From Gammaproteobacteria bacterium (GTDB lineage Bacteria > Pseudomonadota > Gammaproteobacteria > Natronospirales > DASSBR01), in NCBI GenBank assembly GCA_035698525.1, contig DASSBR010000053.1, positions 22,187 through 86,186 of the forward strand: 64,000 nt of DNA, in the 5' to 3' direction. A program made the translations under genes and the position numbers. The notes under the pieces were generated by a model that was given only the letters and a program-made list of their open reading frames with translations, was not told the DNA's origin and did not search any database. Positions 1 through 40,972 of the stretch are shown in pieces (positions within the stretch are counted from its first letter, which is position 1; every line of letters starts with the position of its first letter).

Positions 1-370
1 GCGTCAGATAAATGCGGTCGGCGCGCGGCAGGAGCACCCGGTAAATCGTGGCGCCGCCAATCACCATTAACATTTTGTCCGGTGGCGCGTCGGCCATTGC
101 CAGGTCGAGTGAGGCGAAAACGCGGCAGCCTTCCGGCTGAAAACTGACGTCGCGGCTGACGACGAAGTTGTCGCGCCCCGGCAGCGGCCTGCCGATCGAC
201 TCGAACGTGCGCCGGCCCATCAGAATGGTGTGGCCCATCGTCACGGCCTTGAAGTGCTTGAGATCGGCCGGGAGATGCCAGGGCATCCTGCCGTCGTGGC
301 CGATCTCGCGTTCGTCGCCCATCGCGACGACGAAGCCGATCGGCGGAGTGTTTTTGTTGTCGTCGGCCAT
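1..370 (-). CDS. folA: dihydrofolate reductase (C-terminal end cut off by window start)
   Basis: Reverse translation from the ATG at 370 gives MADDNKNTPPIGFVVAMGDEREIGHDGRMPWHLPADLKHFKAVTMGHTILMGRRTFESIGRPLPGRDNFVVS... This carries the DHFR signature (PW-LP-DL-FK, MGRxTxESIGRPLPxR). It is open-ended, so it is absent from the ORF track. Confidence 0.8.
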   Translation of the reverse strand, partial: MADDNKNTPPIGFVVAMGDEREIGHDGRMPWHLPADLKHFKAVTMGHTILMGRRTFESIGRPLPGRDNFVVSRDVSFQPEGCRVFASLDLAMADAPPDKMLMVIGGATIYRVLLPRADRIYLT

Positions 371-454
371 GGACGTTATTGTACGGGCACGAGCCGTGGC
401 GGGTCACGCGGGGGCCCGTGATAAACTTCCAAAAAAACCGCCAGGAAGGCTCGT

Positions 455-1888
455 ATGGTTCCCATCAGCCCCAGCGTCGATCTGTCGCGCGGTCAATTCG
501 CGTTCACGCTGATATTTCACATCGTCTGGCCGGTGTTCACGATCGGCATGTCGTCGTTCCTCGTGGCGATCGAGGCGCTGTGGCTCAAAACCGGCGACGC
601 CGATTACTATCGCCACGCCCGCTTCTGGGCGAAGCTCCTGCTGCTCAACTTCGGCGTCGGCGTCGCGACCGGTCTGCCGCTCGAATTCGAGTTTGGCACC
701 AACTGGGCGCCGTTCTCGCAGCTCGCCGGCAACTTCTTCGGTAACATCCTCGGCTTCGAAGGCTCGATGGCCTTCATGCTGGAAGCCGGCTTCCTCGGCA
801 TCATGATGTTCGGCTGGAAGCGCGTCGCGCCGGCGATTCACATGTTCGCCACCTGCATGGTGGCGCTGGGCGCATCGATGTCGGCGCTGTGGATCATGTC
901 GGCGAACTCGTGGATGCAGACGCCGACCGGCGGTCACGTCGCCAACGGCCACTTCGTGGTCGACAATTACATCGAGGCGATCTTCAATCCATCGGCGCCG
1001 TGGGGCATCACGCACATGTGGGTCGCCTGCCTTGAAACGACACTGTTCGTCATCGGCGGCCTGAGCGCGTGGTACATCCATCGGAAGCAGCATCCCGACT
1101 TCTTTCTGCGCTCGTTCAAGGTGGTGGTCATTGCCGCCATCCTGATCACGCCGATCCAGATTTTCCTGGGCGATGGCTCGGGCGGTGTCGTATTCGAATA
1201 CCAGCCGGCGAAGGGCGCGGCGATTGAAGGCCACTGGAAGACGAACGCGCCCGGCGAGCCCGCCGCGTGGTCGTTGCTCGCCTGGCCGAACCAGGCGGAA
1301 CAGAAGAACGACTGGTCGCTCGACGTTCCCTACGGGCTGAGCCTGCTCGCGACCCACACGCTCGACGGGCAGGTCAAGGGTCTGAGCGATTTTCCGCGCG
1401 ACGAACAGCCGCCGATGATTCCGCTCCTGTATTACACGTTTCGCTTGATGGTCGCGATCGGCTTTTTCTTCTTCTTCCTGATGCTGTGGACGATGTGGCG
1501 CTGGTGGCGCTACGGCCTCAAGGCGGACAATGCCGATCGCCACAAATGGCTGTGGCGGCTATGGATGGGCGCCATTCCGCTCGGCTACATTGCGGTCGAG
1601 TGCGGCTGGACGGTGCGCGAAGTCGGCCGCCAGCCGTGGGTCATCTACGGCATCATGCGCACCGCGCACGGCGCCTCCGATCTGCCGGTGTCGACGGTTG
1701 CGACAACGCTGATTATCTATGGCGTCATTTACGCGATACTGCTTGCTGCCGTGTTGTACTTTGCACGCCGCATCCTGCTCAAGGGACCGGATGTCACGAT
1801 GCCCGCGCCGCCACGGCGTGGCGGCGGACTCATCGACACGCGCACCGCATGGGAGGCGGGCGAAGGTTCGCGCGAGGAAAGCGCATGA
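455..1888 (+). CDS. cydA: cytochrome bd-type quinol oxidase subunit I (CydA/CioA)
   Basis: 477-aa polytopic ORF. The segments RGQFAFTLIFHIVWPVFTIGM and GFEGSMAFMLEAGFLGIMMFGW are typical of CydA. There is an AGGAAGG RBS before the ATG, and cydB follows with an ATGA overlap. Confidence 0.9.
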   Translation: MVPISPSVDLSRGQFAFTLIFHIVWPVFTIGMSSFLVAIEALWLKTGDADYYRHARFWAKLLLLNFGVGVATGLPLEFEFGTNWAPFSQLAGNFFGNILGFEGSMAFMLEAGFLGIMMFGWKRVAPAIHMFATCMVALGASMSALWIMSANSWMQTPTGGHVANGHFVVDNYIEAIFNPSAPWGITHMWVACLETTLFVIGGLSAWYIHRKQHPDFFLRSFKVVVIAAILITPIQIFLGDGSGGVVFEYQPAKGAAIEGHWKTNAPGEPAAWSLLAWPNQAEQKNDWSLDVPYGLSLLATHTLDGQVKGLSDFPRDEQPPMIPLLYYTFRLMVAIGFFFFFLMLWTMWRWWRYGLKADNADRHKWLWRLWMGAIPLGYIAVECGWTVREVGRQPWVIYGIMRTAHGASDLPVSTVATTLIIYGVIYAILLAAVLYFARRILLKGPDVTMPAPPRRGGGLIDTRTAWEAGEGSREESA

Positions 1889-2901
1889 ACGGCGCCTATC
1901 ATTTTCTTGCCGATGTCTGGTTCGGCCTCATCGGGATCCTGCTGATCCTGTACGTCGTACTCGACGGCTTCGACCTGGGCGTCGGCATCCTGTCGCTGTT
2001 CGCGCACGACGAGCGCGAGCGCGGCATCATGATGGGCACGCTCGGCAGCGTCTGGGACGCCAACGAAACCTGGCTGGTGCTGCTCGGCGGCGCGCTGTTC
2101 GGCGCGTTCCCGCGCGCCTATGCAGTCGTGCTGCACGCCTTGTACGTGCCGATCATGGCTGCGCTGTTCGGGCTGATTTTCCGCGCCGTGGCATTCGAGT
2201 TTCGCGAAAACGCGCGCCGCAAACCCGTCTGGAACATTGCCTTCGGTTGCGGCAGCCTGCTCGCCGCGATCGCGCAGGGCTTTGCCCTCGGCGCCATCAT
2301 CGACGGCATCCCAGCCGGACCGGCCGGCTACCAGGGCGGCGTGATGGACTGGTTTTCGCCGTTCGCGCTGCTGGTCGCGATCGGCGTCGTGTTCGGCTAC
2401 ATGCTGCTCGGGGCGACCTACCTGATCGTCAAGACCGTCGACAAGACCCAGGCACGCAACTACCGCTTCGCGACGCTCGCGGCATGGTGCACGGTACTGG
2501 TCGGGGTCGGCGTCAGCTTATGGACGCCGCTTCGGTTCGACTACGTCGCCCACAAATGGTTTGGCGAGCACTTTTATGCGCTGGGCGTCCTGCCATTGTG
2601 CGCGGCGCTGGCTTTCGCCGCGCTGCTGTTCAGTCTCAGGCGACGCCGCGAATACGCGCCATTCGCCTGGAGCATTCTCATTTTTCTGTTCTCGTTTATC
2701 GGTCTCGCCGCAAGCCTGTATCCGAACGTTGTTCCGCCCGACATCACGGTTTACGGCGCAGCATCGTCCGCAAAGACGCTGGTGTTCATGCTCACCGGCA
2801 TCGGCATGCTGATCCCGATCATGCTGATCTACAACGCGTACCAGTACCTGGTGTTTCGTGGCAAGGTGACGGAGGCGGGCTACGGCGGCGGCGAAGACTG
2901 A
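1885..2901 (+). CDS. cydB: cytochrome bd-type quinol oxidase subunit II
   Basis: An in-frame ATG at 1885 overlaps the cydA stop (ATGA). The N-terminus MNGAYHFLADVWFGLIGILLILYVVLDGFDLGVGIL is CydB-like. The longer track ORF starting at 1267 overlaps cydA and is not used. Confidence 0.9.
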   Translation: MNGAYHFLADVWFGLIGILLILYVVLDGFDLGVGILSLFAHDERERGIMMGTLGSVWDANETWLVLLGGALFGAFPRAYAVVLHALYVPIMAALFGLIFRAVAFEFRENARRKPVWNIAFGCGSLLAAIAQGFALGAIIDGIPAGPAGYQGGVMDWFSPFALLVAIGVVFGYMLLGATYLIVKTVDKTQARNYRFATLAAWCTVLVGVGVSLWTPLRFDYVAHKWFGEHFYALGVLPLCAALAFAALLFSLRRRREYAPFAWSILIFLFSFIGLAASLYPNVVPPDITVYGAASSAKTLVFMLTGIGMLIPIMLIYNAYQYLVFRGKVTEAGYGGGED

Positions 2902-28222: not shown

Positions 28223-28311
28223 TTATTTATGTGCGGCGAATTTGCGGCCGCGAGGGAGCATTATTAAATAAGTATTTGAAATACAAGTAAAAAATAGTGT
28301 GGCTAAAGCGC

Positions 28312-28340
28312 TTGACAGCATCTCCCGTCAGGCCTATGCT
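28312..28340 (+). promoter_or_regulatory. candidate sigma-70 promoter for nrdJa
   Basis: TTGACA (28312-28317), a 17-nt spacer, then TATGCT (28335-28340). This predicts a 5' UTR of about 100 nt before ATG 28450. Confidence 0.5.
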
Positions 28341-28449
28341 TTGGGCTCAGCCTACAAGATGTTGTGTCTTTATATCCACAACTTCTCCACAGCTTGTACA
28401 CGATATTTACGACCGAAAGAAGTCAAAAATCCGGAGGGCGGGTCATAGT

Positions 28450-31400
28450 ATGAAGACAGCAATGAAGCGCGAACCCACAACAGTCATGGAAATCCCGGTG
28501 CAGGAAGCATCCGCAGACATCTGGGACAAGAAATACCGCCTGAAGACCAAGGATGGCACGATTCTGGACGAGACGGTTGACGATACGTACAAGCGCGTCG
28601 CCCGCGCGCTGGCCGAAGTCGAAGAACCGGCCAATCAAGAGGAGTGGTACGAGAAATTCCTGTGGGCGCTGCGCCATGGCGCCATTCCGGCCGGTCGCAT
28701 CACGTCCAACGCCGGCGCGTGGGAGCACAAGCCGGCGACCTCGACGATCAACTGCACCGTTTCCGGCACGATCCGCGACTCGATGAACGACATCCTCGGC
28801 AAGGTGCACGAGGCGGGGCTCACGCTCAAGGCCGGCTGCGGCATCGGCTACTGCTTCTCGACGCTGCGCCCGCGTGGCGCCTACGTCGCCGGCGCCGGCG
28901 CCTACACCTCCGGCCCGCTGTCGTTCATGGATATCTACGACAAGATGTGCTTCACCGTCTCGTCGGCCGGCGGCCGCCGCGGCGCGCAGATGGGCACCTT
29001 CGACGTCGGCCACCCGGACGTGCTCGACTTCATCCGCGCCAAGCGGGAGTCCGGTCGCCTGCGCCAGTTCAACCTGTCGCTGCTGGTCACCGACGAATTC
29101 ATTCAGGCGGTCAAGAACGACGCCACCTGGCCGCTGGCATTCCCGCTCAACCAGATAGAAGTGGACGCCGAGGAAATCGACATCAACGACCCGGCCAAGG
29201 TCGTCTGGCGCGAGTGGGAAACCACCGAAGGCTATGTCACCAACGAAGCGGGCCTGGTCGCCTGCAAGATATACAAGACCCTCCCGGCGCGCCGCGTCTG
29301 GGACATGATCATGACCTCGACTTATGACTTTGCCGAGCCCGGCTTCGTGCTGATCGACAAAGTCAACGAGATGAACAACAACTGGTTCTGCGAAACCATC
29401 CGTGCGACGAACCCGTGCGTGACGGCCGATACCCGGCTGCACACACAGTACGGGCTGGTCCCGATCGGCGAGCTGTATCAGTCGGGTGTGCCGCTGTCCG
29501 TGACGGTGGACCGTCGCGCGTTGGGTGATGATGATCGCGGCGTCGAAATTCGCGACGCCAAACCTGCTTTTATGACGGCACGCGAAGCCGACGTATACAA
29601 GGTCGTCACCGAAGCCGGTTATGAAATAAAGGCCACCGAATGGCACGATTTCTACACTCAGCGCGGGAAGATCAAGCTGTCAGAGTTGCAGGCCGGCGAC
29701 GAATTGCTGGTGCAGTCCGGCAAAGGGCAGTTCGGCAAGGAGGGCAGTAATCAGTTGGGCACGCTGCTCGGGCTCATTACGGGCGATGGTCACTTCACCA
29801 ACCGTGGCAAGGATCAGGAAGCGGTCATCGTTAACTTCTGGAACGAAGAACGTACGCTCGCAAACGGAATAGCAGGCTATATCAACAGCTTGATCGCCAG
29901 CGTGGCACAAAGCGCCAGAAGCTACGAGGTCGCACCCGTAGCAGTACCGGAGCGGAACCATCTCTTTATCCGCTCGGTGTTGTTGGCCCGCGTACTTGAG
30001 CATTACGGCTTCACCCGGCAGAGCAAGTTAAGGGTGCCGGAAGTGGTCTGGCGCGGCTCCGAAGCATGCGTAAAGGGCTACCTGCGCGGCCTGTTCCAGG
30101 CCGACGGTACGGTCAATGTCTCGTCCAACGGCCAGAGTTGCTCCGTTCGTTTGGCTTCAAGCTATCCGAGTCTGCTCAAGGACGTTCAGATGTTGCTCGC
30201 CAACTTCGGCGTGTACTGCCGCATCCACCAGCGGCGCCGCGCCGGCAAGCGCATACTTCCTGATGGTCGTGGTGGCCAGCGCGAATATGCCTGCCGGGCG
30301 GATCATGAACTGATCATTGATGGACAGTCGCGCGGCGTATTTATGCGCGAGATCGGCTTCCTGATGGATTATAAGAACGAGAAATACGCGCAATGGGTGG
30401 CCGACAAGGCGCTGCGCAAGACGCAACGGTTCGCGACGAAGATCAAGGAAATAGTGTTTGTTGGTCGCGAGGCGGTTTTCGACACCACGCAGCCCGATAA
30501 CAACACGGTTATCTTCAACGGCCTGGTGACGGGGCAATGCGGCGAACAGCCGCTCCCGCCGTACGGCTCCTGCCTGCTAGGCTCCGTTAACCTCACCAAG
30601 TTCGTGCTCGACCCGTTCACCGATCAGGCGCGTTTCGACTGGGAAGAATTCCGCGACGTCGTCAAGACGTTCACGCGGATGCTCGACAACGTCGTCGAGA
30701 TCAACGGCCTGCCGCTGGAGCAGCAGCGCAACGAAATCTTCAGCAAGCGCCGCCACGGCATGGGCTTCCTGGGGCTAGGCTCAACGCTGACGATGCTGCG
30801 TATGAAATACGGCGCGCCGGAGTCGGTCGACTTTACCGACCAGGTCTCGCGCGAACTGGCCGTCGCCGGCTGGGAAGAAGCGCTGGAACTGGCGAAGGAA
30901 AAAGGCCCCGCGCCGATCCTCGTCGAGAACTTCACCGTCACCGAGGAAATGCTGCGCAAGCGCCCGGAAATGGCGGCGGACGGCTACAAGGTCGGCGACA
31001 AGGTTCCGGGGCGCATCCTGCACTCGAAATACAGCCGCTACATGCAACAGGTCGCGACTGTCGCGCCCGAACTGGTGGCGGAACTGGCCGAAGTGGGCGC
31101 GCGCTTCACGCACCACAGCTCGATCGCCCCGACCGGCACGATCTCGCTGTCGCTCGCGAACAACGCCGCCAATGGCATCGAGCCGAGCTTCGCGCACCAC
31201 TACTTCCGCAACGTGATCCGCGAAGGCAAGAAGTCGAAGGAAAAGATCGACGTCTTCTCGTTCGAGCTGCTGGCCTACCGCGCGCTCATCAACCCGAACG
31301 CGCTGCCCGAGTCCGAGAACGAGCACGAAAAGCTGCCCGACTACTTCGTCACGGCGGAACACATCACGCCGAAGGAACACGTCGACATTCAGGCCGCGGC

Positions 31401-31719
31401 ACAGAAGTGGATCGACTCGTCGATCTCCAAGACCGCCAACGTCCCGACCGACTACCCGTACGAGGACTTCAAGGACATCTACCTGTATGCCTACGACAGC
31501 GGCCTGAAAGGCTGCACCACGTTCCGCTTCAACCCGGAAGCGTTCCAGGGCGTGCTCGTCAAGGGCTCCGACCTCCAGAACACCACATACAAGTTCACGC
31601 TGGAGGACGGCACCGTAGTTGAAGCCAAGGGTGACGAAGAAATCGAATACGACGGCGAAATGCACACCGCCGCCAACTTATTCGACGCTCTTAAAGAGGG
31701 CTACTACGGCAAATGGTGA
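28450..31719 (+). CDS. nrdJ: class II (adenosylcobalamin-dependent) ribonucleotide reductase, NrdJa part, interrupted by an in-frame intein
   Basis: ATG 28450 lies downstream of the promoter and of GGAGGG. RNR blocks include NCTVSG and the finger-loop motif ATNP/CGEQPLPPYGSC, which is split by 374 inserted codons. Without the insert the product is about 715 aa. Confidence 0.9.
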   Translation: MKTAMKREPTTVMEIPVQEASADIWDKKYRLKTKDGTILDETVDDTYKRVARALAEVEEPANQEEWYEKFLWALRHGAIPAGRITSNAGAWEHKPATSTINCTVSGTIRDSMNDILGKVHEAGLTLKAGCGIGYCFSTLRPRGAYVAGAGAYTSGPLSFMDIYDKMCFTVSSAGGRRGAQMGTFDVGHPDVLDFIRAKRESGRLRQFNLSLLVTDEFIQAVKNDATWPLAFPLNQIEVDAEEIDINDPAKVVWREWETTEGYVTNEAGLVACKIYKTLPARRVWDMIMTSTYDFAEPGFVLIDKVNEMNNNWFCETIRATNPCVTADTRLHTQYGLVPIGELYQSGVPLSVTVDRRALGDDDRGVEIRDAKPAFMTAREADVYKVVTEAGYEIKATEWHDFYTQRGKIKLSELQAGDELLVQSGKGQFGKEGSNQLGTLLGLITGDGHFTNRGKDQEAVIVNFWNEERTLANGIAGYINSLIASVAQSARSYEVAPVAVPERNHLFIRSVLLARVLEHYGFTRQSKLRVPEVVWRGSEACVKGYLRGLFQADGTVNVSSNGQSCSVRLASSYPSLLKDVQMLLANFGVYCRIHQRRRAGKRILPDGRGGQREYACRADHELIIDGQSRGVFMREIGFLMDYKNEKYAQWVADKALRKTQRFATKIKEIVFVGREAVFDTTQPDNNTVIFNGLVTGQCGEQPLPPYGSCLLGSVNLTKFVLDPFTDQARFDWEEFRDVVKTFTRMLDNVVEINGLPLEQQRNEIFSKRRHGMGFLGLGSTLTMLRMKYGAPESVDFTDQVSRELAVAGWEEALELAKEKGPAPILVENFTVTEEMLRKRPEMAADGYKVGDKVPGRILHSKYSRYMQQVATVAPELVAELAEVGARFTHHSSIAPTGTISLSLANNAANGIEPSFAHHYFRNVIREGKKSKEKIDVFSFELLAYRALINPNALPESENEHEKLPDYFVTAEHITPKEHVDIQAAAQKWIDSSISKTANVPTDYPYEDFKDIYLYAYDSGLKGCTTFRFNPEAFQGVLVKGSDLQNTTYKFTLEDGTVVEAKGDEEIEYDGEMHTAANLFDALKEGYYGKW
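29416..30537 (+). mobile_element. intein with LAGLIDADG homing-endonuclease domain inside nrdJa
   Basis: Block A CVTADTRLHT at the N-junction. Block B KATEWHDFYT. LAGLIDADG motifs LLGLITGDGHF (29764-29796) and YLRGLFQADGTV (30079-30114). Block F/G reads EAVFDTTQPDNNTVIFNGLVTGQ followed by the +1 Cys of CGEQPL. Confidence 0.85.
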
Positions 31720-31729
31720 ATTCTCATCC

Positions 31730-31748
31730 CCTCTCCCTCAGGGAGAGG
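31730..31748. repeat. REP-like GC-rich hairpin in the nrdJa-nrdJb spacer
   Basis: CCTCTCCC-tca-GGGAGAGG (8-bp stem), followed by ACTAGGGTGAGG. It resembles a repetitive extragenic palindrome motif common in proteobacteria. Confidence 0.4.
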
Positions 31749-31784
31749 ACTAGGGTGAGGAGATAAATTTCCAAGGACTCAGTT

Positions 31785-32519
31785 ATGACCATAAAGATCG
31801 ACAAAAAAATCGTAAGCTACAACGTAGCCAAACCCGCCGAAGGCGAAGCCGAGAAATCAACAATAGAATCGGCAGTAAACAAAAAAGCCGCCGCCCAAGC
31901 GGCGGAGAAAAAGCCAAAGGCCGAAGTCATCCGCATGCACGAAAAGCTCGAGCGGCCGGAAAGGCTGCTCGGCTCAACGTACAAGGTCAAAACGCCGATC
32001 TCCGAACACGCGATGTACGTCACCATCAACGACATCCTGCTGAACGAAGGCACGGAATACGAAGTTCGCCGCCCGTTCGAGATCTTCATCAACTCGAAAA
32101 ACCTCGACCACTACCAGTGGATCGTCGCCCTGACGCGAATCATCTCCGCAGTTTTCCGCAAGGGCGGCGACGTCACCTTCCTGGTAGAAGAGCTGAAAGC
32201 GGTATTCGACCCGCGCGGCGGCTACTGGAAGCCGGGCGGCAAGTTCATGCCGTCACTGATCGCCGAACTCGGCGAAGTGATCGAAAAGCACCTCGTCACC
32301 ATCGGCATGATGCACAAGGAAGAACTCGACGAGCACCAGAAAAAGCTGATCGAAGAAAAGCGCGCCGAATTTGAAGCGCAGACAAAGCAGCAGGACGCGT
32401 TTGCGGAGAATGCGTTTCCGGCTGGGGCGCAGCTTTGCGCCAAATGCAACACGGCGGCTGTTGTGATGATGGATGGGTGTATGACTTGTCTTAGTTGCGG
32501 CGATAGCAAGTGCGGGTAG
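31785..32519 (+). CDS. nrdJ: class II ribonucleotide reductase C-terminal subunit (NrdJb, TSCPD-type domain)
   Basis: AAGGA RBS. The core is YVTINDILLNEG...RPFEIFINSKN...WIVALTRIISAVFRKGG. The C-terminal Cys tail is CAKCNTAAVVMMDGCMTCLSCGDSKCG, as at the end of unsplit NrdJ. Confidence 0.8.
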   Translation: MTIKIDKKIVSYNVAKPAEGEAEKSTIESAVNKKAAAQAAEKKPKAEVIRMHEKLERPERLLGSTYKVKTPISEHAMYVTINDILLNEGTEYEVRRPFEIFINSKNLDHYQWIVALTRIISAVFRKGGDVTFLVEELKAVFDPRGGYWKPGGKFMPSLIAELGEVIEKHLVTIGMMHKEELDEHQKKLIEEKRAEFEAQTKQQDAFAENAFPAGAQLCAKCNTAAVVMMDGCMTCLSCGDSKCG

Positions 32520-33407: not shown

Positions 33408-33647
33408 GTGTTAAGAATCAGAGAGCAGGTAAATGAAAATTGTAATGCGGCGCGACGTATGCAAATCGAATACGTACACCTTGATGCGGATGAAGCTTGG
33501 AACGCGGATGCTCAAAGGTGGGAGCTTGCCACTGTGTGCGACAATGCCACCTGCGAAATGTGCGGCGGAGAGACGTCAATCGAGGAGTTCAAGATTGGCG
33601 GTGACAGATCAAAAGCGATGCCAAGACAACGACTGGAGAACCGATGA
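33408..33647 (+). CDS. small hypothetical acidic protein with C-x4-C-x2-C motif (island gene 2; start uncertain)
   Basis: The stop overlaps the ATG of the next gene (ATGA at 33644-33647). Starts are possible at GTG 33408 or ATG 33459. A competing frame exists at 33433-33666. Confidence 0.35.
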   Translation: MLRIREQVNENCNAARRMQIEYVHLDADEAWNADAQRWELATVCDNATCEMCGGETSIEEFKIGGDRSKAMPRQRLENR

Positions 33648-34297
33648 AAAGGCGATTGACGCTTGAAGTCTTGCAAACAGAAGCTGCCAAATTTGCCGAG
33701 AGAGAGACTAAGTATGACGAACCGAAACTATATGGCGTCACTGACGGCAAGGCCGTTGGAACCTATCTTGAACACAAGTTCACAGTCTATCTGCTGGAAC
33801 GCTACAAGTTCGACAAGGGCAACTCGGCCGTGGGAATCGACCTACCGGGGCTAGACGTAGACATCAAGGTGACGAGCATCAAACAGCCACAGTCGTCGTG
33901 TCCTTTTAAATCAGCCAAGCAAAAAATTTATGGTCTGGAATACAGCTTGTTAATATTCGTTTATCAGAAATACGACGACCATAAGCGTCAGACCGGGCGT
34001 CTCAACATGAAGCACGCCATCTTCGTGGCGAAGGAGCGGACCGCGGACTATCAGACCACGAGAGGCATTAGGGAGATACTCGACCGAGATGGAAATGAGG
34101 ATGACATCGCAGCCTTCATTATGGAGCGTAATCTCCCGGTAGACGAAGTGGGCGCGCGTTCCTTGGCAGAAGCGATCCTGAAAAAGCCGCCGGAACTAGG
34201 GTACGTGACGATGTCTAATGCGCTGCAATGGAGGTTACAGTATAAACGGGTAATTGAGCGGGCCGGGGAAGTTGACGGGCTAGTGAGGATCAGATAG
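33644..34297 (+). CDS. putative PD-(D/E)XK type II restriction endonuclease (island gene 3)
   Basis: 217 aa. The motif GIDLPGLDVDIKVTS (D66...D72-I-K74; 33839-33868) is preceded by GKAVGTYLEHKF. A DNA methyltransferase gene follows immediately. Confidence 0.55.
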   Translation: MKRRLTLEVLQTEAAKFAERETKYDEPKLYGVTDGKAVGTYLEHKFTVYLLERYKFDKGNSAVGIDLPGLDVDIKVTSIKQPQSSCPFKSAKQKIYGLEYSLLIFVYQKYDDHKRQTGRLNMKHAIFVAKERTADYQTTRGIREILDRDGNEDDIAAFIMERNLPVDEVGARSLAEAILKKPPELGYVTMSNALQWRLQYKRVIERAGEVDGLVRIR

Positions 34298-34299
34298 AC

Positions 34300-35865
34300 G
34301 TGGCGACCAAACACCCTGAAAAGTGGGAGTATGGCGACTTTCAGACACCCGATGCCTTAGCAAGAGCAGTTGTCGGGCGGCTTGCTAAGAATCACGGTAT
34401 AGCCCCGAGGACAATCATAGAGCCAACTTGCGGTGAAGGCGCATTCGTGCGCGCCGCGTTGGAGGAATTCCCCGATGCTGATGTCGTGGCGTTTGATATT
34501 AATGGCCAATACGTCAAAGCAGCCCGAGAACAATGCCATTCCACCGGAGCAGGCGGCTCCATTTACATAAAGCAGGCGGACTTCTTTTCGTTGGACTGGG
34601 ACGAAATTTTGAGCAATATCGCGCCTCCCATACTAGTGCTCGGAAACCCGCCTTGGGTGACTAGTAGTGAGTTAAGTGCACTTAATAGCAAAAACCTGCC
34701 GGCTAAATCCAATTTCCAAGGTCGAAGAGGCATTGAGGCAATAACAGGGGCCGCGAACTTTGACATATCGGAATGGATGTTGCTGCGGCATGTGCGGTGG
34801 CTAAGTCGCGTCGAGGGAACTATCGCTCTGCTATGCAAATATTCAGTTGCCCGCAAGGTAATGCGGCAAATCCAGCAGAATCAGGAGCAGCGGCTATTCG
34901 GCCACATCTACTTCATAGACGCGAAGCGTCACTTCGGAGCTTCGGTAGCGGCTTGTCTGTTCGTGCTGACAACCGACCGCGGTAATGCGGATTGCGAGGT
35001 CTACGACGATATGGAAGCCGCTAGCCCGGCGCACGTCATAGGAGGACGTGACGGGCTTTTAGTCAAGGATGTCGACAGTTATGCCAAATGGCGCCATCTA
35101 CGCGGCCAAGACAGCCGACATATATGGCGTTCGGGAATGAAGCATGACTGCTCAAAGGTCATGGAGCTAGAGCCCCTCGGAAACGGCATGTATCGAAATG
35201 GCTTACATGAAGATGTAAGGATAGAGCTGCACTACCTGTTTCCGCTGCTAAAGAGTTCTGACATCGGAAATTCAAGAATAAAAACTTACCGGAAGGTAGT
35301 GTTGGTGCCTCAGCGTAAGGCCGGCGAAGATACTTCGTCCATACAGTCCGCGGCTCCAAAAACATGGGATTATCTTCAGGCACATGACGAATTATTGGCC
35401 GGCCGGAAAAGCAGCATATACAAGAATAAACCAGCCTATTCTGTGTTCGGTATCGGCGACTATAGCTTTAAGCCATGGAAGGTCGCAATATCCGGGTTCT
35501 ACAAGCACCTAAAATTCCACCTCGTTGGGCCGATGGAAAACAAGCCCGTTATCTTCGACGATACAATAAGTTTTCTCGGATTCGACACAAAGGCCGAAGC
35601 GCAATTTATCCACGATCTACTGGCTTCCGAACCGGCCCATCAATTTTTAGCCTCGATGATTTTCTGGGACGAAAAGAGACCCATTACGACCACCATCCTC
35701 CGGCGCTTGTGCTTAAAGTCGCTTTCTATTGAGGTGGGCCGCTCGGCCGAATATCTTCGCTGGTGCAAGGGATCTAGCATTGGCGAGAATGGTCAGCAAC
35801 TTCTGGCTATAGGGGAACAACGAGCGCCTTTCTCGACTCACGGAAGTCTGACCGATCACGCCTAA
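34300..35865 (+). CDS. N6-adenine DNA methyltransferase, gamma-class (island gene 4)
   Basis: GTG start 2 nt after the previous stop. Motif I IIEPTCGEGAF, motif IV LGNPPWV (NPPW at 34645-34656), and a C-terminal region of about 300 aa (likely the target-recognition domain). Confidence 0.8.
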   Translation: MATKHPEKWEYGDFQTPDALARAVVGRLAKNHGIAPRTIIEPTCGEGAFVRAALEEFPDADVVAFDINGQYVKAAREQCHSTGAGGSIYIKQADFFSLDWDEILSNIAPPILVLGNPPWVTSSELSALNSKNLPAKSNFQGRRGIEAITGAANFDISEWMLLRHVRWLSRVEGTIALLCKYSVARKVMRQIQQNQEQRLFGHIYFIDAKRHFGASVAACLFVLTTDRGNADCEVYDDMEAASPAHVIGGRDGLLVKDVDSYAKWRHLRGQDSRHIWRSGMKHDCSKVMELEPLGNGMYRNGLHEDVRIELHYLFPLLKSSDIGNSRIKTYRKVVLVPQRKAGEDTSSIQSAAPKTWDYLQAHDELLAGRKSSIYKNKPAYSVFGIGDYSFKPWKVAISGFYKHLKFHLVGPMENKPVIFDDTISFLGFDTKAEAQFIHDLLASEPAHQFLASMIFWDEKRPITTTILRRLCLKSLSIEVGRSAEYLRWCKGSSIGENGQQLLAIGEQRAPFSTHGSLTDHA

Positions 35866-35949: not shown

Positions 35950-36699
35950 CTACGGCGATGTCCTCTCCACTCGAAGGAATGTAGCAAGATCATCTTCGTC
36001 TCCCGCCCCCTCATGCAGCATAACCTGCCAGCCGTAGGTTGATAATACGTCGTGTACAAATAGTTGCGCACGCATCCGTTCGGCAGAATAATCACGTCGT
36101 AACGCTTCGCGCGTTCCGTGGCTTATCTGAGATCGCCCTCTCTCATATATCTCCTTCACGACTTGCTTCACCGATTTGGCAGGTACCTTATCAAAGTAAG
36201 GGTCATCAGCTTCACGATTTAGCACAGAAGTTGCCATATCAATGATTCCACTGGCTTTGCCGCCATTCGCGAGTGTATCTAAGCAAATGCCGGAATAGAC
36301 AAGAGATTCAAAGTCGAATGTCGTGGTCATAGCCCGGTGAAACCAATGAACGGCCGACAACCATCTGTCGCCAAGTTTCGGGCACCGCCAACGCCCGTTG
36401 GGAGCTTCACTATCACCTACGTAAGATTCCAGCATGCGCCCTAGCGCCACACAATATGCTGCAAAGTTGCCCGCCCCATCGTGAGCAATAGCATCACCTT
36501 CCTTCAGACGTGTTGCGTCGAAAGACCATCCGGGAAACGTTATAGCGTCCGTTCGGAAGGCCATGCCTTTCTTCATCATCGGACGCCAGGGTTCATCCAA
36601 GAGATGGGCATGGGCAATGGCCGGAAGGCCAAGGGGGAGTAAGACTGAAACCAATGCAAGCCGCGCAGCAGCATGCGCTAACTGATCCGCGCGCACCAT
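35950..36699 (-). CDS. hypothetical protein with C-terminal Rx4H (HEPN-like) motif
   Basis: 249-aa ORF in low-GC DNA. ERGRSQISHG (R189-x4-H194; 36118-36135) lies between predicted helices. The start is uncertain because the RBS is poor. Confidence 0.45.
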   Translation of the reverse strand: MVRADQLAHAAARLALVSVLLPLGLPAIAHAHLLDEPWRPMMKKGMAFRTDAITFPGWSFDATRLKEGDAIAHDGAGNFAAYCVALGRMLESYVGDSEAPNGRWRCPKLGDRWLSAVHWFHRAMTTTFDFESLVYSGICLDTLANGGKASGIIDMATSVLNREADDPYFDKVPAKSVKQVVKEIYERGRSQISHGTREALRRDYSAERMRAQLFVHDVLSTYGWQVMLHEGAGDEDDLATFLRVERTSP

Positions 36700-36802: not shown

Positions 36803-37072
36803 TCAGTGCTGCCGAATCCAACGCATCAGCGCCTCGTAGCCGGCCAGGGTAATAGGTGTGCTGCCGCGTCCATCTGCTGCGGGAAGCATCGGCGGAAACG
36901 GCATGTCCGGTTTTTTGTCACGCCACTGTTTAAAAACGTCGCGGCCAAGCGATTTCGCTTCAACTATCCCCTCTATCGCGGCTGCTAGATCCTCGTTTAA
37001 CTCCAGTCCGTGTTCGTCAGCAAGATCATTCTCCGCCAAACCTTCGCCTCCGGTAGCACCAACGGGTAGCAA
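36803..37072 (-). CDS. small hypothetical acidic protein upstream of the HEPN-like gene
   Basis: 89-codon ORF with a TTG start, on the same strand and 103 nt upstream of 36699. No motif recognised. It could be a gene fragment. Confidence 0.3.
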   Translation of the reverse strand: MLPVGATGGEGLAENDLADEHGLELNEDLAAAIEGIVEAKSLGRDVFKQWRDKKPDMPFPPMLPAADGRGSTPITLAGYEALMRWIRQH

Positions 37073-37222: not shown

Positions 37223-37428
37223 GGGATCAGACTGAGGCACCCCCGTTTTCACGGACAGATAATTAAGATACAGCAACTCGTTCTTCATAATGCAGAGGGT
37301 TGATATAGCCCAACGTCTGATGCGACCTCTGTCGATTGTAAAACATTCAATGTAATCAAAAATTTCCGCCCGTGGCATAGCGTCCAGTGGAAGCTAACCG
37401 ATTAAACGGACACTGAAGTTTGGGGTCA
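37223..37428 (-). mobile_element. IS3-family insertion sequence relic (transposase C-terminal remnant with frameshift plus terminal TG...CA ends)
   Basis: The minus strand encodes PRAEIFDYIECF, and after a 1-nt frame slip FYNRQRSHQTLGYINPLHYEE-stop, which is the conserved end of IS3 OrfB. The stop lies about 40 nt (37263-37265) before a terminal ...GGGGGTGCCTCA. The opposite end reads TGACCCCAAACTTCAGTGTCCG. Confidence 0.6.
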
Positions 37429-37448
37429 GGTCTCGAATCGTAGCATTC
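37422..37448 (+). repeat. 27-bp direct repeat, copy 1
   Basis: GGGGTCAGGTCTCGAATCGTAGCATTC, identical to 37580-37606. It overlaps the proposed IS end (GGGGTCA). Confidence 0.9.
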
Positions 37449-37579
37449 AGCGGGCGTAGCTGGGGCTCGGGGCCGTCGGCGGGCGCCAAGAATTGCTTGC
37501 GCATGGCATCCAGCCGAGTAGCTTGATCCGGGGATCAGTTTTCGCTCTGTAGGGAGCAAAAACCCGGGGTCAAAAATCC

Positions 37580-37606
37580 GGGGTCAGGTCTCGAATCGTA
37601 GCATTC
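37580..37606 (+). repeat. 27-bp direct repeat, copy 2
   Basis: Perfect copy of 37422-37448. An extra GGGGTCA lies at 37566-37572. Confidence 0.9.
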
Positions 37607-37645: not shown

Positions 37646-39646
37646 TTAAAGGGCCGGAACGCCAATATCCGTGAGTAGAGCGTGGGCCGGATCGTAGTAT
37701 TCTGCCTTTCGAGTGGGGTCGTCGACGCTACCTTCTGGGACAACGATTACCATACCTTGCCTGGCGCGGGTGAGGAGTACGCGGTAGGCATTCAGTAGGT
37801 AGTGCTGTCGAATACCTTTCCGTACGCGCTGCCACCGCTTGCCTTTGAAGCTGAAATAGTCCCAGTTCGTCTGGTTCATGCGCAGGTCACCGTCCCATAC
37901 GACGCAAGTCCAATCGAGCTCCAGTCCCTGTACTTGAAACTCGGTGGCGACGTCCTCCAGATAGTAGGAAGACCGGACGTCATTCTTGCCCTCAAGGAAC
38001 CACCGTACCGGATCGACTTTAACTCGCACATCGATGGCGTGCGGCTTCAACCGCTGTGCCTGGGACGACACCACAATGCCGTAACGTTCACTGCCACGGG
38101 CTTGTTCACGCAGCCAAACTTTCGCCTTATTTAAACTGCGAGTCACACGAATCGGAAAGTTTGGCAAAACGTGCGATAGCGTGTCCCGAGCCTGTTCCAA
38201 CTCAAGGTTGAGCAGTTGGTTGACGAAGTCAGATACGTTTTCGGATCGAAAAGATCGGATCGAAGTGGCGAGATGAAGAGCCTCGTCCCAATGGCCCCGC
38301 GAGTTGCTCGCCAGAGCGCGTAGTTCGTCTTCAGCGCGATATTCAATTTCCAATAGGCGGGGGGACAGATAGACAGACCACGAGTCGAAACGCTCTCGTA
38401 TCGCCCGCAGCCATTCGCCGATACCGGCCTCGCCAGTGTTGATTTCCTGGCCGCTACCCACCAGACAGATGACGGCGGCCCAGTCGTCGTGCCGGTCGAG
38501 ACACGAGATCAGAAATCCGGGTTCGGATTGATCGAAGTCGGGAATGCCTTTCTTTTGCCGCATGAAGTTGGTCGTTTGTTCAAGGCTCCACGCTCGCTGA
38601 GCCTCGTCAAACAGTGCGATGTGTTCAATCGGGGCGGCAGTGTTCGCGAGGCAGTCGTCGCGGAAGTGGTGAACGTTTTGGATGAACTGCTTCACTGAGC
38701 TGCGTGCTTCACCAATTCGAAGTTTATTGCCGCGCACTTTGGCCCGGCTAACCTGATCGCGAGCCAGCGCTTCGTGCAATACCTTAACGAGTGGCCCGTT
38801 GCCGGAAAGATAGACGCTGTAGAGATCGTCTTCCTTTCTTGTATGCCGGTTGGCGATGTCGAGCCCGACAAGCGTTTTTCCCGCACCGGGTACGCCGGTG
38901 ACGAAGAAGATTGCCTTTTCACCGTGTTGCTGCGTCTGCGCGATCAGCCTGGCGAGCTGTTCAGAGGTGATAACGAGGTTTTCCGCTCCGGCGTAACTTC
39001 GGGAGATGTCTTCTACATTGTGTCCGGCATAGAGCGCGCGGGCCGCTTCCACAATGGTAGGAGTTGGATGATAACGGCCTTGCTGCCAGGCCTGAGGGTC
39101 GATTTGTGCTCCGGCGAAGTGTTGAGCTCCGAGCTGTAGTGCACGCGGCAGTCCCCGCTCTCCGCAACATAGCGGGACGGTGAGGCTGTCCTGGCGTGGC
39201 GTATCTTCAATCGATGTCGGAATATCTGGCGCATCTGTTGCTACCAGCACCGGTACAATCGGAATGTGGTGACTCGGTTCGTGAAAGTTCTTGAGATCGA
39301 GAGCGTAATCCCAGACTTGGTCAATGGCGTCGCGTGAAAAGGTGTCGCTGCCAACCTTGAATTCCAACACGAAGACAATTTGGTCAAGAAGAAGAACGGT
39401 GTCGATTCGTCTGCCAAGCCGCGGTATATCGTATTCGAGCAAGACGCCACCATCGATCGACTGAAAGTCGGCCAATAGCGTCTTAAGGATGTCTATCTGC
39501 CGCTTCCATGCGGCCTTCTGTGAGGGGTCGTCGGAAAAACTCGACCAGCTCGTCAACGCGCCAATAATGACATTAGTATTGTCATTGAGGAATTCTGCAA
39601 TGGGCGCCCCGTACCCCCATCGTTTCCGCATTTGTGCTTGATCCAT
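37646..39646 (-). CDS. PD-(D/E)XK nuclease - DUF2075/Schlafen-group-3-like SF1 helicase fusion protein
   Basis: 666 aa. N-terminal GRRIDTVLLLDQIVFVLEFKVG (D82...E95-x-K97; 39356-39403). Walker A FFVTGVPGAGKT (38873-38896). Walker B ALFDEAQRAW. C-terminal AYRVLLTRARQGMVIVVP. Confidence 0.8.
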   Translation of the reverse strand: MDQAQMRKRWGYGAPIAEFLNDNTNVIIGALTSWSSFSDDPSQKAAWKRQIDILKTLLADFQSIDGGVLLEYDIPRLGRRIDTVLLLDQIVFVLEFKVGSDTFSRDAIDQVWDYALDLKNFHEPSHHIPIVPVLVATDAPDIPTSIEDTPRQDSLTVPLCCGERGLPRALQLGAQHFAGAQIDPQAWQQGRYHPTPTIVEAARALYAGHNVEDISRSYAGAENLVITSEQLARLIAQTQQHGEKAIFFVTGVPGAGKTLVGLDIANRHTRKEDDLYSVYLSGNGPLVKVLHEALARDQVSRAKVRGNKLRIGEARSSVKQFIQNVHHFRDDCLANTAAPIEHIALFDEAQRAWSLEQTTNFMRQKKGIPDFDQSEPGFLISCLDRHDDWAAVICLVGSGQEINTGEAGIGEWLRAIRERFDSWSVYLSPRLLEIEYRAEDELRALASNSRGHWDEALHLATSIRSFRSENVSDFVNQLLNLELEQARDTLSHVLPNFPIRVTRSLNKAKVWLREQARGSERYGIVVSSQAQRLKPHAIDVRVKVDPVRWFLEGKNDVRSSYYLEDVATEFQVQGLELDWTCVVWDGDLRMNQTNWDYFSFKGKRWQRVRKGIRQHYLLNAYRVLLTRARQGMVIVVPEGSVDDPTRKAEYYDPAHALLTDIGVPAL

Positions 39647-39871: not shown

Positions 39872-40972
39872 ATGGAATTTCACGGACGCCTGCGCCACGT
39901 CGTCGCGATATTGCTTCTGCCGATCGTGTTCGTTGGGTGCGCGACCCAACCCGCCAGGCGTTCGCCGTCGGCGGCGGTGCAGGCCAAGATCGTCCAGCTG
40001 ATGCAGTCCGGCGTCAGCGACGCAAGCGGGTGGGCGACCGACATTGATACGGCACTCGCGGTCCAGGACATCCCGGCAACGACGCAAAACATTTGTGCCA
40101 TATTGGCGGTGACGGAGCAGGAATCGGGATTCAAGGTGAACCCCGTCGTACCGGACCTGCCGGAGATTGCGCGCCATACCCTGGAGAGGCGGGCCGCAGC
40201 CCGCCATATACCGGGATTCGTGGTCGATGCAGCGTTGGCCTTGAAGTCGCCGGACGGCCGGAGCTACGGCGAACGGCTGAAGAGCGTGCATACCGAGAAA
40301 GAGCTGAGTGCGCTGTTCGAAGACTTTATCGGCCGGGTTCCGCTCGGCAAGCGGCTGTTCAGTTCATTCAACCCAATCCACACGGGCGGGCCGATGCAGG
40401 TGAGCATTGCCTTTGCGGAAGCGCACGATCAGGACTACCTGTATCCGGTGGATGGCTCGATCCGCAACGAAGTCTTCAGCCGGCGCGGCGGCATGTATTT
40501 CGGCATCGCGCACCTCTTGGGCTACCCCACGCACTATCACCGTATCATCTACCGCTTCGCCGATTACAACGCGGGCTGGTACGCCAGCCGCAACGCCGCG
40601 CTACAGCACGCGATCAGCGTTGCCTCCGGCATTCCACTGGCGCTCGACGGAGATCTGGTCCGCTACGGTTCCGACGAGCCGGGCGCGACGGAACGGGCGG
40701 TACGATCGTTGCGTGACAAGCTGGACATGACGAACGAGGAGATTCACGACACGCTGGAACAGGGAGAAACCTACGAGTTCCAGGCGAGTCACTTGTACGA
40801 AGGCATCTTTGCGCTGGCGGACCGGATCGCGGGTAAGCGCCTGCCGCGTGCAGTGCTGCCGGGCATCAAGCTCGAAAGCCCGAAGATTACGCGCGACCTC
40901 ACTACGGCTTGGTTCGCCAAGAGGGTCAGCGCACGATTCTGGCATTGCATGCCGTCGAGCTCGGGCGACTGA
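39872..40972 (+). CDS. lipoprotein, DUF1615-like
   Basis: Lipobox LLLPIVFVGC. ICAILAVTEQESGFKVNP and GGPMQVS blocks. The family name is recalled from memory and not verified. Confidence 0.5.
   Translation: MEFHGRLRHVVAILLLPIVFVGCATQPARRSPSAAVQAKIVQLMQSGVSDASGWATDIDTALAVQDIPATTQNICAILAVTEQESGFKVNPVVPDLPEIARHTLERRAAARHIPGFVVDAALALKSPDGRSYGERLKSVHTEKELSALFEDFIGRVPLGKRLFSSFNPIHTGGPMQVSIAFAEAHDQDYLYPVDGSIRNEVFSRRGGMYFGIAHLLGYPTHYHRIIYRFADYNAGWYASRNAALQHAISVASGIPLALDGDLVRYGSDEPGATERAVRSLRDKLDMTNEEIHDTLEQGETYEFQASHLYEGIFALADRIAGKRLPRAVLPGIKLESPKITRDLTTAWFAKRVSARFWHCMPSSSGD

What the first reader, a model, noticed from the sequence alone, without database searches (positions are those of the whole stretch)
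37646..39646. Stand-alone PD-(D/E)XK nuclease fused to a DUF2075/Schlafen-type helicase: candidate single-gene defence
The N-terminal region has a restriction-endonuclease-like D...E-x-K signature (IDTVLLL...VLEFK). A P-loop helicase core follows (GVPGAGKT, DEAQ, LLTRARQGMVIV), of the type I associate with the DUF2075 / Schlafen group-3 helicase family. The nuclease-plus-SF1-helicase architecture resembles what has been reported for the staphylococcal Nhi defence enzyme. Homology to Nhi cannot be judged here. The gene sits alone at the island edge next to an IS relic.
Basis: partly seen in the sequence, partly recalled or inferred. Interest (0 to 1): 0.65.

Follow-up and report, generated by a model that had tools for sequence, protein, structure and literature searches.

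The report
Nhi-like nuclease-helicase anti-phage gene

Summary

**Domains**
- Residues ~10-190 fold confidently (pLDDT 90) into an alpha-beta-beta-beta-alpha-beta PD-(D/E)xK core. E71, D82, E95-x-K97 and Q110-x3-Y114 are invariant across the family. The nearest solved folds are all PD-(D/E)xK nucleases.
- Residues 244-637 are a complete DUF2075 / SLFN-g3 helicase (Pfam E 1e-81).

**Family**
- The whole protein matches PADLOC candidate PDC-S41 end to end (E 2e-277).
- PDC-S41 is the same family as the verified "Nhi-like" defence protein of Millman et al. 2022. The published fragment of that protein hits PDC-S41 at E 9e-76 and aligns to the window protein at E 4e-39. Its 89%-identical full-length relative aligns end to end at E 3e-64.
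- The protein is not a sequence relative of staphylococcal Nhi. PADLOC's Nhi model, taken here to represent that enzyme, matches only the P-loop.

**Accessory status**
- The gene occurs in 2 of 41 related genomes, at different loci.
- It has lower GC than its surroundings and is under strong purifying selection (dN/dS 0.07).
- It lies in a small island beside a type II R-M system and a short IS3 transposase remnant.

**Verdict:** the reading is supported, and this is a new member of a known kind. The family's mechanism is still unresolved.

The parts
37646..39646 (-). Complete Nhi-like / PDC-S41 gene, 666 aa, intact
   Evidence: ORF. PADLOC PDC-S41 E 2.4e-277, residues 9-665 on HMM positions 3-652 of 657. 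Full-length homologues at 59-76% identity. 84% identical copy in G001.
39077..39619 (-). N-terminal PD-(D/E)xK nuclease domain (residues ~10-190)
   Evidence: AlphaFold model of residues 1-235, mean pLDDT 90, with order H41-61, E66-74, E79-87, E90-97, H105-121, E130-136. Top Foldseek PDB hits are all PD-(D/E)xK nucleases, best E 4.9e-3, probability 0.98.
39305..39436 (-). Catalytic motif block E71 ... D82 ... E95-F-K97 ... Q110-V-W-D-Y114
   Evidence: All six residues are invariant in 39 full-length homologues and in 41 diverse N-terminal domains at 38-48% identity. They align to E69, D81, E94-C-K96 and Q108/Y112 of the Bacillus Nhi-like protein.
38918..39076 (-). Conserved linker (residues 191-243) with invariant Y192-x-P194-T-P196-x-I198-x-E-A-A motif; function unknown
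   Evidence: Invariant columns. Conserved as YEPSPSMLEAAR in the Bacillus Nhi-like protein. Low model confidence here. dN/dS 0.045.
37736..38917 (-). DUF2075 / Schlafen group-3 type SF1 helicase domain (residues 244-637)
   Evidence: Pfam PF09848, E 1.3e-81, profile positions 1-353 of 354.
38873..38896 (-). Walker A GVPGAGKT (251-258, K257)
   Evidence: G251-L259 are invariant apart from A255, which is at least 90% conserved.
38597..38608 (-). Walker B DEAQ (347-350)
   Evidence: D347 E348 A349 Q350 invariant.
37742..37777 (-). Helicase motif VI-like LLTRARQGMVIV (624-635)
   Evidence: L624, T626-G631, V633 and V635 invariant.
37277..37378 (-). Context: ~34-codon C-terminal remnant of an IS3-family (rve) transposase
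   Evidence: Matches G002:C16 at 67% identity, E 1.5e-5. The G002 frame is rve_2 at E 1.3e-16 and rve_3 at E 3.5e-13. No Pfam hit on the window fragment itself.
37422..37606 (+). Context: perfect 27-nt direct repeat (37422-37448 and 37580-37606) between the IS remnant and the 3' end of the gene
   Evidence: These are the only two copies in the genome. Meaning unknown.

Best explanation
The gene encodes a member of the 'Nhi-like' single-gene anti-phage family (system SG141 of Millman et al. 2022, which is PADLOC candidate PDC-S41). One polypeptide carries an N-terminal metal-dependent PD-(D/E)xK nuclease, a conserved linker and a C-terminal DUF2075/Schlafen-group-3 type SF1 helicase. The most likely mode of action is as follows. 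The ATP-driven helicase loads on and moves along invading phage DNA, and the attached nuclease cuts it, so that phage DNA does not accumulate. Host DNA is spared through some feature of the target. That feature may be a DNA modification or a structure such as free ends or replication intermediates. Shown here: domain identity, intact catalytic residues, family membership, accessory and horizontally acquired status, and purifying selection. Taken from published work on relatives: anti-phage activity, DNA cleavage in vitro, and escape by loss of a phage DNA methylase. Inferred: that this copy is active, what its target is, and how it tells self from non-self.
For: 1. Family membership.
- PDC-S41, E 2.4e-277, full length.
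- The verified B. cereus FSL H8-0482 Nhi-like protein (first 399 aa, from Millman supplementary file 11) hits PDC-S41 at E 8.8e-76.
- That fragment aligns to the window protein at E 4e-39, 29% identity.
- Its 89%-identical, 611-aa relative on B. thuringiensis plasmid pBMB400 aligns end to end with the window protein, 10-645 against 3-596, E 3e-64.
- Millman's own family table lists a Dokdonella immobilis gene on contig Ga0079869_133. The D. immobilis protein on FOVF01000033.1 is 65% identical to the window protein and hits PDC-S41 at E 4.4e-275.

2. Catalytic integrity.
- E71, D82, E95, K97, Q110, Y114 and the Walker A/B and motif VI residues are invariant across the family.
- The nuclease fold is confident and PD-(D/E)xK-like.
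- The Bacillus relative shows a weak HSDR_N match, E 0.0048.

3. Accessory and selected.
- Present in 2 of 41 related genomes.
- In G001 it lies between ergothioneine-synthesis genes and an M28 peptidase, as a ~2 kb low-GC patch.
- In D. immobilis the neighbours are different again.
- Gene GC is 0.55, against ~0.62 in the flanks.
- dN/dS is 0.07 overall: nuclease 0.11, linker 0.045, helicase 0.058.

4. Defence context.
- A type II REase and MTase lie 1.8-4 kb away.

5. Published function of relatives.
- Nhi-like was verified as defensive (Millman 2022, bioRxiv 10.1101/2022.05.11.491447).
- Phages escape it by loss of a phage DNA methylase (10.1101/2022.08.27.505566).
- 'PsNhi-like' protected E. 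coli against 7 of 11 phages. It degraded T7, SECphi17 and SPO1 DNA in vitro but not E. coli genomic or plasmid DNA (10.1101/2025.07.10.664194).
Against: - Identity to the verified protein is only 28-29%, so the phage range and trigger may differ.
- No experiment exists for this copy or its close (>60% identical) relatives.
- I could not check that 'PsNhi-like' belongs to the same sequence family, because its sequence is not held.
- The genome is a 72%-complete MAG, so expression is unknown. No promoter was detected on the minus strand.
- Foldseek E-values for the nuclease domain are weak, 5e-3 at best. The fold call rests on the consistency of the hits together with the motifs.
- The full-length model is mediocre in the helicase part (pLDDT 71 overall).
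Confidence: 0.85

Rival explanations
1. Same family, with a specific mechanism: an ATP-dependent, modification-dependent (type IV-like) restriction enzyme. It attacks phage DNA carrying methylation that the phage uses to evade R-M systems. On this reading it complements the neighbouring type II R-M, which cuts unmodified DNA.
For: [quoted passage not shown] The window gene sits 1.8 kb from an R-M methyltransferase and 3.3 kb from its endonuclease. DUF2075 proteins were noted beside modification-dependent endonucleases (PMC6765204).
Against: No modification-reading domain (SRA, EVE/PUA, DUF3427, YTH) was found in the protein. PsNhi-like degraded T7 DNA, which I take to be unmodified (own knowledge), as well as ssDNA phage DNA in vitro. 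The methylase result is genetic and could be indirect.
Confidence: 0.25
2. Same family, acting by abortive infection. Once triggered, the nuclease-helicase degrades host as well as phage DNA, and the infected cell dies or stops growing.
For: Bari et al. discuss possible collateral host DNA damage for staphylococcal Nhi. Several PD-(D/E)xK nuclease-NTPase systems cut all DNAs in vitro.
Against: [quoted passage not shown] Nothing in the sequence bears on this question.
Confidence: 0.15
3. A housekeeping DNA repair or recombination helicase-nuclease (Dna2-, AddAB- or RecB-like), not immunity.
For: Domain logic is shared with Dna2 and RecB-type enzymes. The QhxxY motif after the ExK is, to my recollection, typical of RecB/Cas4-like nucleases. 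This rests on my own knowledge and was not tested.
Against: Absent from 39 of 41 related genomes, including all 27 high-quality ones. It lies at different loci in each carrier. It has low GC and sits in an island with an R-M system and an IS remnant. It belongs to the family of a verified defence gene.
Confidence: 0.04
4. A gene that serves a mobile element itself, for example in replication, exclusion of competing elements or island maintenance, rather than protecting the host from phages.
For: Homologues occur on plasmids (Persicobacter 46% identity, Bacillus megaplasmids 29%). One occurs on a 12.7 kb contig labelled 'Bacteriophage sp.' (45%).
Against: No integrase, relaxase or replication gene accompanies it in the window, in G001 or in D. 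immobilis. Defence genes are commonly carried by such elements, so plasmid carriage does not contradict a defence role.
Confidence: 0.06

Closest known systems
Nhi-like (Millman et al. 2022, system SG141; verified protein of Bacillus cereus FSL H8-0482, IMG gene 2729017301, 611 aa)
   Same: The homology is end to end, at E 3e-64 through an 89%-identical relative and E 4e-39 directly against the published 399 aa. The order is the same: PD-(D/E)xK nuclease, conserved Y-x-P-[TS]-P linker, DUF2075 helicase. The catalytic E, D, ExK, QxxxY, Walker A/B and motif VI are all aligned. It is a single gene without a partner.
   Different: Identity is only 28-29%. The window protein is 55 aa longer, with a 22-residue insertion at about residues 296-317 and other indels in the alignment. 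The host is a proteobacterium, not Bacillus. This copy is untested.
PADLOC PDC-S41 (single-gene 'phage defence candidate', Payne et al. bioRxiv 10.1101/2024.01.29.577857)
   Same: Full-length match, E 2.4e-277, 919.6 bits.
   Different: There is no sequence difference. PADLOC lists PDC-S41 among its 145 untested candidates, yet the verified Nhi-like protein scores E 8.8e-76 on this model and only 26.5 bits on PADLOC's 'Nhi' model. The two names therefore cover one family.
Nhi (Bari et al. 2022; Staphylococcus epidermidis SERP2475)
   Same: The architecture and presumed logic are shared: an N-terminal PD-(D/E)xK nuclease plus an SF1 helicase overlapping DUF2075, as single-gene immunity.
   Different: There is no detectable homology outside the P-loop. 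PADLOC's Nhi model gives 22.6 bits over residues 235-275 only. I assume, without having checked, that this model represents SERP2475. Millman et al. also state that Nhi-like shares no sequence identity with Nhi.
Eukaryotic Schlafen group III proteins (SLFN5/11/13/14)
   Same: The C-terminal helicase domain belongs to the same Pfam family, PF09848.
   Different: The N-terminal effector is a PD-(D/E)xK DNase-type fold, not the Schlafen core RNase. No Schlafen-core/AlbA_2 match was found.

Membership tests
Nhi-like (Millman 2022 SG141) = PADLOC PDC-S41 | Full-length sequence homology to the experimentally verified protein | tested here: met
   Direct BLASTP against the published 399 aa gives E 4e-39, 29% identity. 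Against the 611-aa, 89%-identical relative P0272 it gives E 3e-64, covering 10-645 against 3-596.
Nhi-like (Millman 2022 SG141) = PADLOC PDC-S41 | Match to the family profile over its whole length | tested here: met
   PDLC05014, E 2.4e-277, HMM positions 3-652 of 657. The verified fragment scores E 8.8e-76 and the D. immobilis member from Millman's table scores E 4.4e-275 on the same model.
Nhi-like (Millman 2022 SG141) = PADLOC PDC-S41 | N-terminal nuclease with intact PD-(D/E)xK catalytic residues | tested here: met
   E71, D82, E95 and K97 are invariant. Fold.
Nhi-like (Millman 2022 SG141) = PADLOC PDC-S41 | C-terminal DUF2075 (PF09848) helicase with Walker A and B | tested here: met
   PF09848, E 1.3e-81. 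GVPGAGKT and DEAQ are conserved: every residue is invariant except A255, which is at least 90% conserved.
Nhi-like (Millman 2022 SG141) = PADLOC PDC-S41 | Stand-alone gene with no conserved partner | tested here: met
   The neighbours differ in the window, G001 and D. immobilis.
Nhi-like (Millman 2022 SG141) = PADLOC PDC-S41 | Protects cells from phage | not testable with these tools
   Known only for the Bacillus protein and for a 'PsNhi-like' protein whose sequence I could not compare.
Nhi sensu stricto (S. epidermidis SERP2475) | Sequence homology to the Nhi family profile | tested here: not met
   PDLC02372 gives 22.6 bits, covering only residues 235-275 of the protein on positions 194-229 of a 470-position model. 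I assume, without having checked, that this PADLOC model represents SERP2475.
Nhi sensu stricto (S. epidermidis SERP2475) | Nuclease plus SF1 helicase in one polypeptide | tested here: met
Schlafen group III | SLFN-g3 helicase domain | tested here: met
   PF09848, E 1.3e-81.
Schlafen group III | N-terminal Schlafen core (AlbA_2-type) RNase domain | tested here: not met
   No such Pfam match at E up to 0.1. The N-terminal domain has a PD-(D/E)xK fold.

The most novel reading that the evidence does not exclude
The Nhi-like/PDC-S41 family could be an ATP-driven, type IV-like restriction enzyme that recognises methyl-protected phage DNA without any known modification-reading domain. Recognition might go through the invariant, unmodelled Y-x-P-T-P-x-I-x-E-A-A linker or through the helicase itself. 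Placement beside a classical R-M system, as here, would then give a two-layer trap: unmodified DNA is cut by the R-M enzyme, and phages that methylate themselves to evade it are cut by the Nhi-like enzyme.
Probability: 0.2. Interest if true: 0.5.

Novelty: new member of a known kind. Interest (0 to 1): 0.25.

Why it matters
The gene adds one more intact, selected copy of a widespread defence gene in an uncultured proteobacterial lineage. The family has more than 8000 clusters at 90% identity.

The more useful by-product concerns databases. PADLOC's "untested candidate" PDC-S41 and the verified "Nhi-like" system are one family, so PDC-S41 hits can be read as Nhi-like.

The family's way of telling phage DNA from host DNA is still open. 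The invariant residues listed here (E71, D82, E95, K97, Q110, Y114, K257 and the Y192-P-T-P linker) give clear targets for mutagenesis.

Tried and rejected
- **Sequence search of the PDB.** Neither the whole protein nor a profile of the N-terminal domain gave anything meaningful.
- **Foldseek with the full-length model.** It gave only weak, mixed helicase/AAA hits because the helicase half was poorly modelled. I re-folded the N-terminal domain alone, which worked.
- **NCBIfam.** No family beyond chance P-loop hits.
- **Search for bona fide Nhi (PDLC02372) across 301 genomes of the phylum, to obtain a comparator.** Only two partial hits, not useful.
- **Attempt to show an empty site for the island in same-genus genomes.** It failed. 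In G002 the DUF1615 gene is flanked by glycerol kinase, a DEAD-box helicase and FtsH, and nrdJb is on another contig. The island therefore sits at a synteny break, and its exact insertion borders cannot be shown this way.
- **Tests of the IS remnant itself.** Pfam gave nothing, even at E up to 10. tblastn of its 34 residues against plasmids also gave nothing. Support came only from a better-preserved copy in G002.
- **Literature search for 'PDC-S41'.** No paper.
- **Promoter and terminator scan.** Nothing above the shuffled expectation, and nothing on the gene's strand.
- **Housekeeping repair helicase reading.** Rejected because of the patchy distribution and the differing loci.
Full report
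**Observation.** The window has one long open frame at 37646-39646 on the minus strand, of 666 codons. A GGGGGA stretch lies about 8 nt upstream of the ATG.

**Domains.** Pfam places a complete Schlafen group-3/DUF2075 helicase domain (PF09848) on residues 244-637, covering profile positions 1-353 of 354, with E 1.3e-81. No Pfam family covers residues 1-243.

An alignment of 39 full-length homologues at 59-74% identity shows E71, D82, E95, K97, Q110 and Y114 as invariant. G251-L259 of the Walker A region is invariant apart from A255, which is at least 90% conserved. D347-Q350 and the motif VI residues (L624, T626-G631) are also invariant. The same six N-terminal residues stay invariant in 41 much more diverse N-terminal domains at 38-48% identity. 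These were drawn from 2434 representative proteins that match residues 1-235.

AlphaFold2 on the N-terminal 235 residues gives mean pLDDT 90 and pTM 0.81. The order is long helix 41-61, strands 66-74, 79-87 and 90-97, helix 105-121, strand 130-136. This is the classical PD-(D/E)xK core, with E71 on the first strand, D82 on the second, E95-x-K97 on the third, and Q110/Y114 on the following helix. Foldseek against the PDB returns PD-(D/E)xK nucleases as its best matches: Cdn1, McrC, the small subunit of R.BspD6I, SfsA, VC1899, Can2, Card1, Can1, MspJI, a Cas4-family protein, Mus81 and Bax1. The E-values are weak (best 4.9e-3, probability 0.98), so the call rests on the consistency of the hits together with the invariant motif. 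Searches of the PDB by sequence alone found nothing. The full-length model was mediocre in the helicase half, at pLDDT 71 overall.

**Family.** PADLOC-DB gives a full-length match to PDC-S41, with E 2.4e-277 and residues 9-665 on HMM positions 3-652 of 657. PADLOC's Nhi and AbiO models touch only about 40 residues around the P-loop, at 22.6 and 19.2 bits. PDC-S41 is one of 145 untested 'phage defence candidates' that Payne et al. derived by guilt-by-embedding (bioRxiv 10.1101/2024.01.29.577857). No paper in the held library mentions it by name.

A tblastn search of plasmids found full-length homologues at 29% identity on Bacillus cereus-group megaplasmids. Supplementary file 11 of Millman et al. 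2022 (bioRxiv 10.1101/2022.05.11.491447) prints the first 399 residues of the experimentally verified 'Nhi-like' protein: system SG141, B. cereus FSL H8-0482, gene 2729017301, 611 aa. Four comparisons tie this protein to the window gene:
- The B. thuringiensis pBMB400 protein WP_016090536.1, also 611 aa, is 89% identical to the verified protein.
- The pBMB400 protein has the same Pfam architecture and hits PDC-S41 at E 9.8e-114.
- The verified fragment itself hits PDC-S41 at E 8.8e-76, against 26.5 bits on the 'Nhi' model.
- The window protein aligns with the pBMB400 protein from end to end (10-645 against 3-596, 28% identity, E 3e-64). It aligns directly with the verified fragment at E 4e-39. 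The nuclease residues (E71/E69, D82/D81, E95-K97/E94-K96, Q110/Q108, Y114/Y112), the linker motif and the helicase motifs are all in register.

Millman's own family table (Table S17) lists a Dokdonella immobilis gene on contig Ga0079869_133. The D. immobilis protein found here lies on FOVF01000033.1, is 65% identical to the window protein, and hits PDC-S41 at E 4.4e-275. I infer that the two contig names refer to the same contig; the gene identifiers could not be matched.

I conclude that the window protein is a member of the Nhi-like family, and that PDC-S41 and Nhi-like are two names for one family. It is not a sequence relative of staphylococcal Nhi, as Millman et al. also say of their protein. 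This assumes that PADLOC's Nhi model represents that enzyme, which I did not check. Earlier notes of this scan on other genomes reached the same equivalence. I saw them only after my own test.

**Accessory status and context.** GC drops from about 0.62 to 0.49-0.57 between roughly 32 and 40 kb. Gene GC is 0.554. The island lies between the split class II ribonucleotide reductase genes (28297-32519) and a DUF1615 gene (39872-40972). It holds:
- a coiled-coil protein;
- a type II restriction enzyme (33644-34297, PADLOC REase_II, E 2.8e-100);
- its methyltransferase (34300-35865, MTase_II, E 1.3e-165);
- a 249-aa and an 89-aa ORF without any family match;
- the IS remnant;
- the Nhi-like gene.

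The protein is found in only 2 of 41 related genomes, and in none of the 27 high-quality ones. In the other carrier, G001, the gene is 84% identical in protein and forms a ~2 kb low-GC patch between EgtD/EgtB-type genes and an M28 peptidase. That is an unrelated locus. In D. immobilis the neighbours are again different. The two same-genus copies align without a gap at 78% nucleotide identity, with dN 0.098, dS 1.36 and dN/dS 0.07. The ratio is low in the nuclease (0.11), linker (0.045) and helicase (0.058) parts alike. The gene is therefore mobile as a single unit and kept under purifying selection.

A clean empty site could not be shown, because gene order around both island flanks differs in the closest genomes.

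**The 'IS relic'.** Translation of 37277-37378 (minus) reads like the extreme C-terminus of an IS3-family transposase. Pfam does not score it, and a plasmid tblastn search gave nothing. It does match, at 67% identity and E 1.5e-5, an 81-aa frame in sister genome G002 that scores rve_2 at E 1.3e-16 and rve_3 at E 3.5e-13. The relic is therefore real but only about 34 codons long. Between it and the gene's stop codon lies a perfect 27-nt direct repeat, at 37422-37448 and 37580-37606, which occurs nowhere else in the genome. Its meaning is unknown.

**Mechanism.** Shown here: an intact nuclease and an intact SF1-type motor in one chain, with both parts and the linker under selection.

From published work on relatives:
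- The Bacillus protein protects B. subtilis.
- Phages escape it by losing a phage DNA methylase, which suggests that methylated phage DNA sensitises the phage to it (10.1101/2022.08.27.505566).
- A 'PsNhi-like' protein protected E. coli against 7 of 11 phages.
- At 1 uM that protein degraded T7, SECphi17 and SPO1 DNA but not E. coli genomic or plasmid DNA (10.1101/2025.07.10.664194). I could not verify that it belongs to the same sequence family.

My best reading is direct, ATP-coupled degradation of phage DNA, with target discrimination by a feature still to be found. A modification-dependent variant has odds of about 0.25, and an abortive variant about 0.15. A housekeeping repair role is very unlikely, given the gene's distribution.

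**Novelty and score.** This is a new member of a known, catalogued and partly characterised family. Interest is low to moderate (0.25). It comes mainly from the unresolved self/non-self mechanism of the family and from the naming overlap between PADLOC and Millman/DefenseFinder.

Noticed in passing
window 37422-37448 and 37580-37606: Perfect 27-nt direct repeat GGGGTCAGGTCTCGAATCGTAGCATTC, 158 bp start to start, between the IS3 remnant and the stop codon of the Nhi-like gene. These are the only two copies in the whole genome. It may be a scar of recombination or insertion.
   Followed up: partly
window 38918-39076 (residues 191-243): The linker between the nuclease and the helicase carries an invariant Y192-x-P-T-P-x-I-x-E-A-A..L-Y-x-G-H motif. 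It is conserved even in the 28%-identical Bacillus Nhi-like protein (YEPSPSMLEAAR). It is modelled with low confidence and has the lowest dN/dS of the protein, 0.045. No function is known.
   Followed up: partly
PADLOC-DB model PDLC05014 (PDC-S41) versus the Millman 2022 SG141 protein: PADLOC v2 lists PDC-S41 as an untested candidate. The experimentally verified Nhi-like protein nevertheless scores E 8.8e-76 on that model and only 26.5 bits on PADLOC's 'Nhi' model. This is a naming redundancy worth flagging to annotators.
   Followed up: yes
L014 (G002:C16), ORFs 110-1459 (+), 1487-1732 (-), 2081-2698 (+): In the sister genome, a better-preserved copy of the same IS3 remnant lies between a KAP-family P-loop NTPase and a RiboL-PSP HEPN protein. 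This is probably another small defence islet.
   Followed up: no
L004 (B. thuringiensis pBMB400) 1-797 (-), 1078-2130 (-), 2152-2475 (-): A second 'DNA/RNA helicase domain-containing protein' lies about 5 kb from the Nhi-like gene on the megaplasmid, next to an HNH endonuclease and an NTP pyrophosphohydrolase. The part of it inside the fetched stretch hits PDC-S41 only weakly, E 1e-4. It may be a diverged paralogue or a related system.
   Followed up: no
P0119 and P0120 (Pseudoxanthomonas putridarboris, same 934 kb contig): Two full-length paralogues of the family, each 59% identical to the window protein, occur on one contig. This may reflect diversification of specificity.
   Followed up: no
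H26, MT836127.1 10060-12021 (-): A 12.7 kb unannotated 'Bacteriophage sp.' contig from human faeces encodes a full-length homologue at 45% identity. Either a phage carries the defence gene, or the contig is mislabelled.
   Followed up: no
L015 10034-10552 (+): In Dokdonella immobilis the Nhi-like gene is followed 38 bp downstream, on the same strand, by a 172-aa gene with no Pfam family. No counterpart exists in the window or in G001.
   Followed up: no
window 35950-36699 (-) and 36803-37072 (-): The 249-aa and 89-aa ORFs between the R-M pair and the Nhi-like gene have no Pfam match even at E up to 10, and the 249-aa ORF has no PADLOC match. They remain unexplained island cargo.
   Followed up: partly
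window 28297-31719 (+): The class II ribonucleotide reductase gene at the island's left border carries a LAGLIDADG intein (Pfam LAGLIDADG_3, E 3e-23, and Intein_splicing).
   Followed up: no
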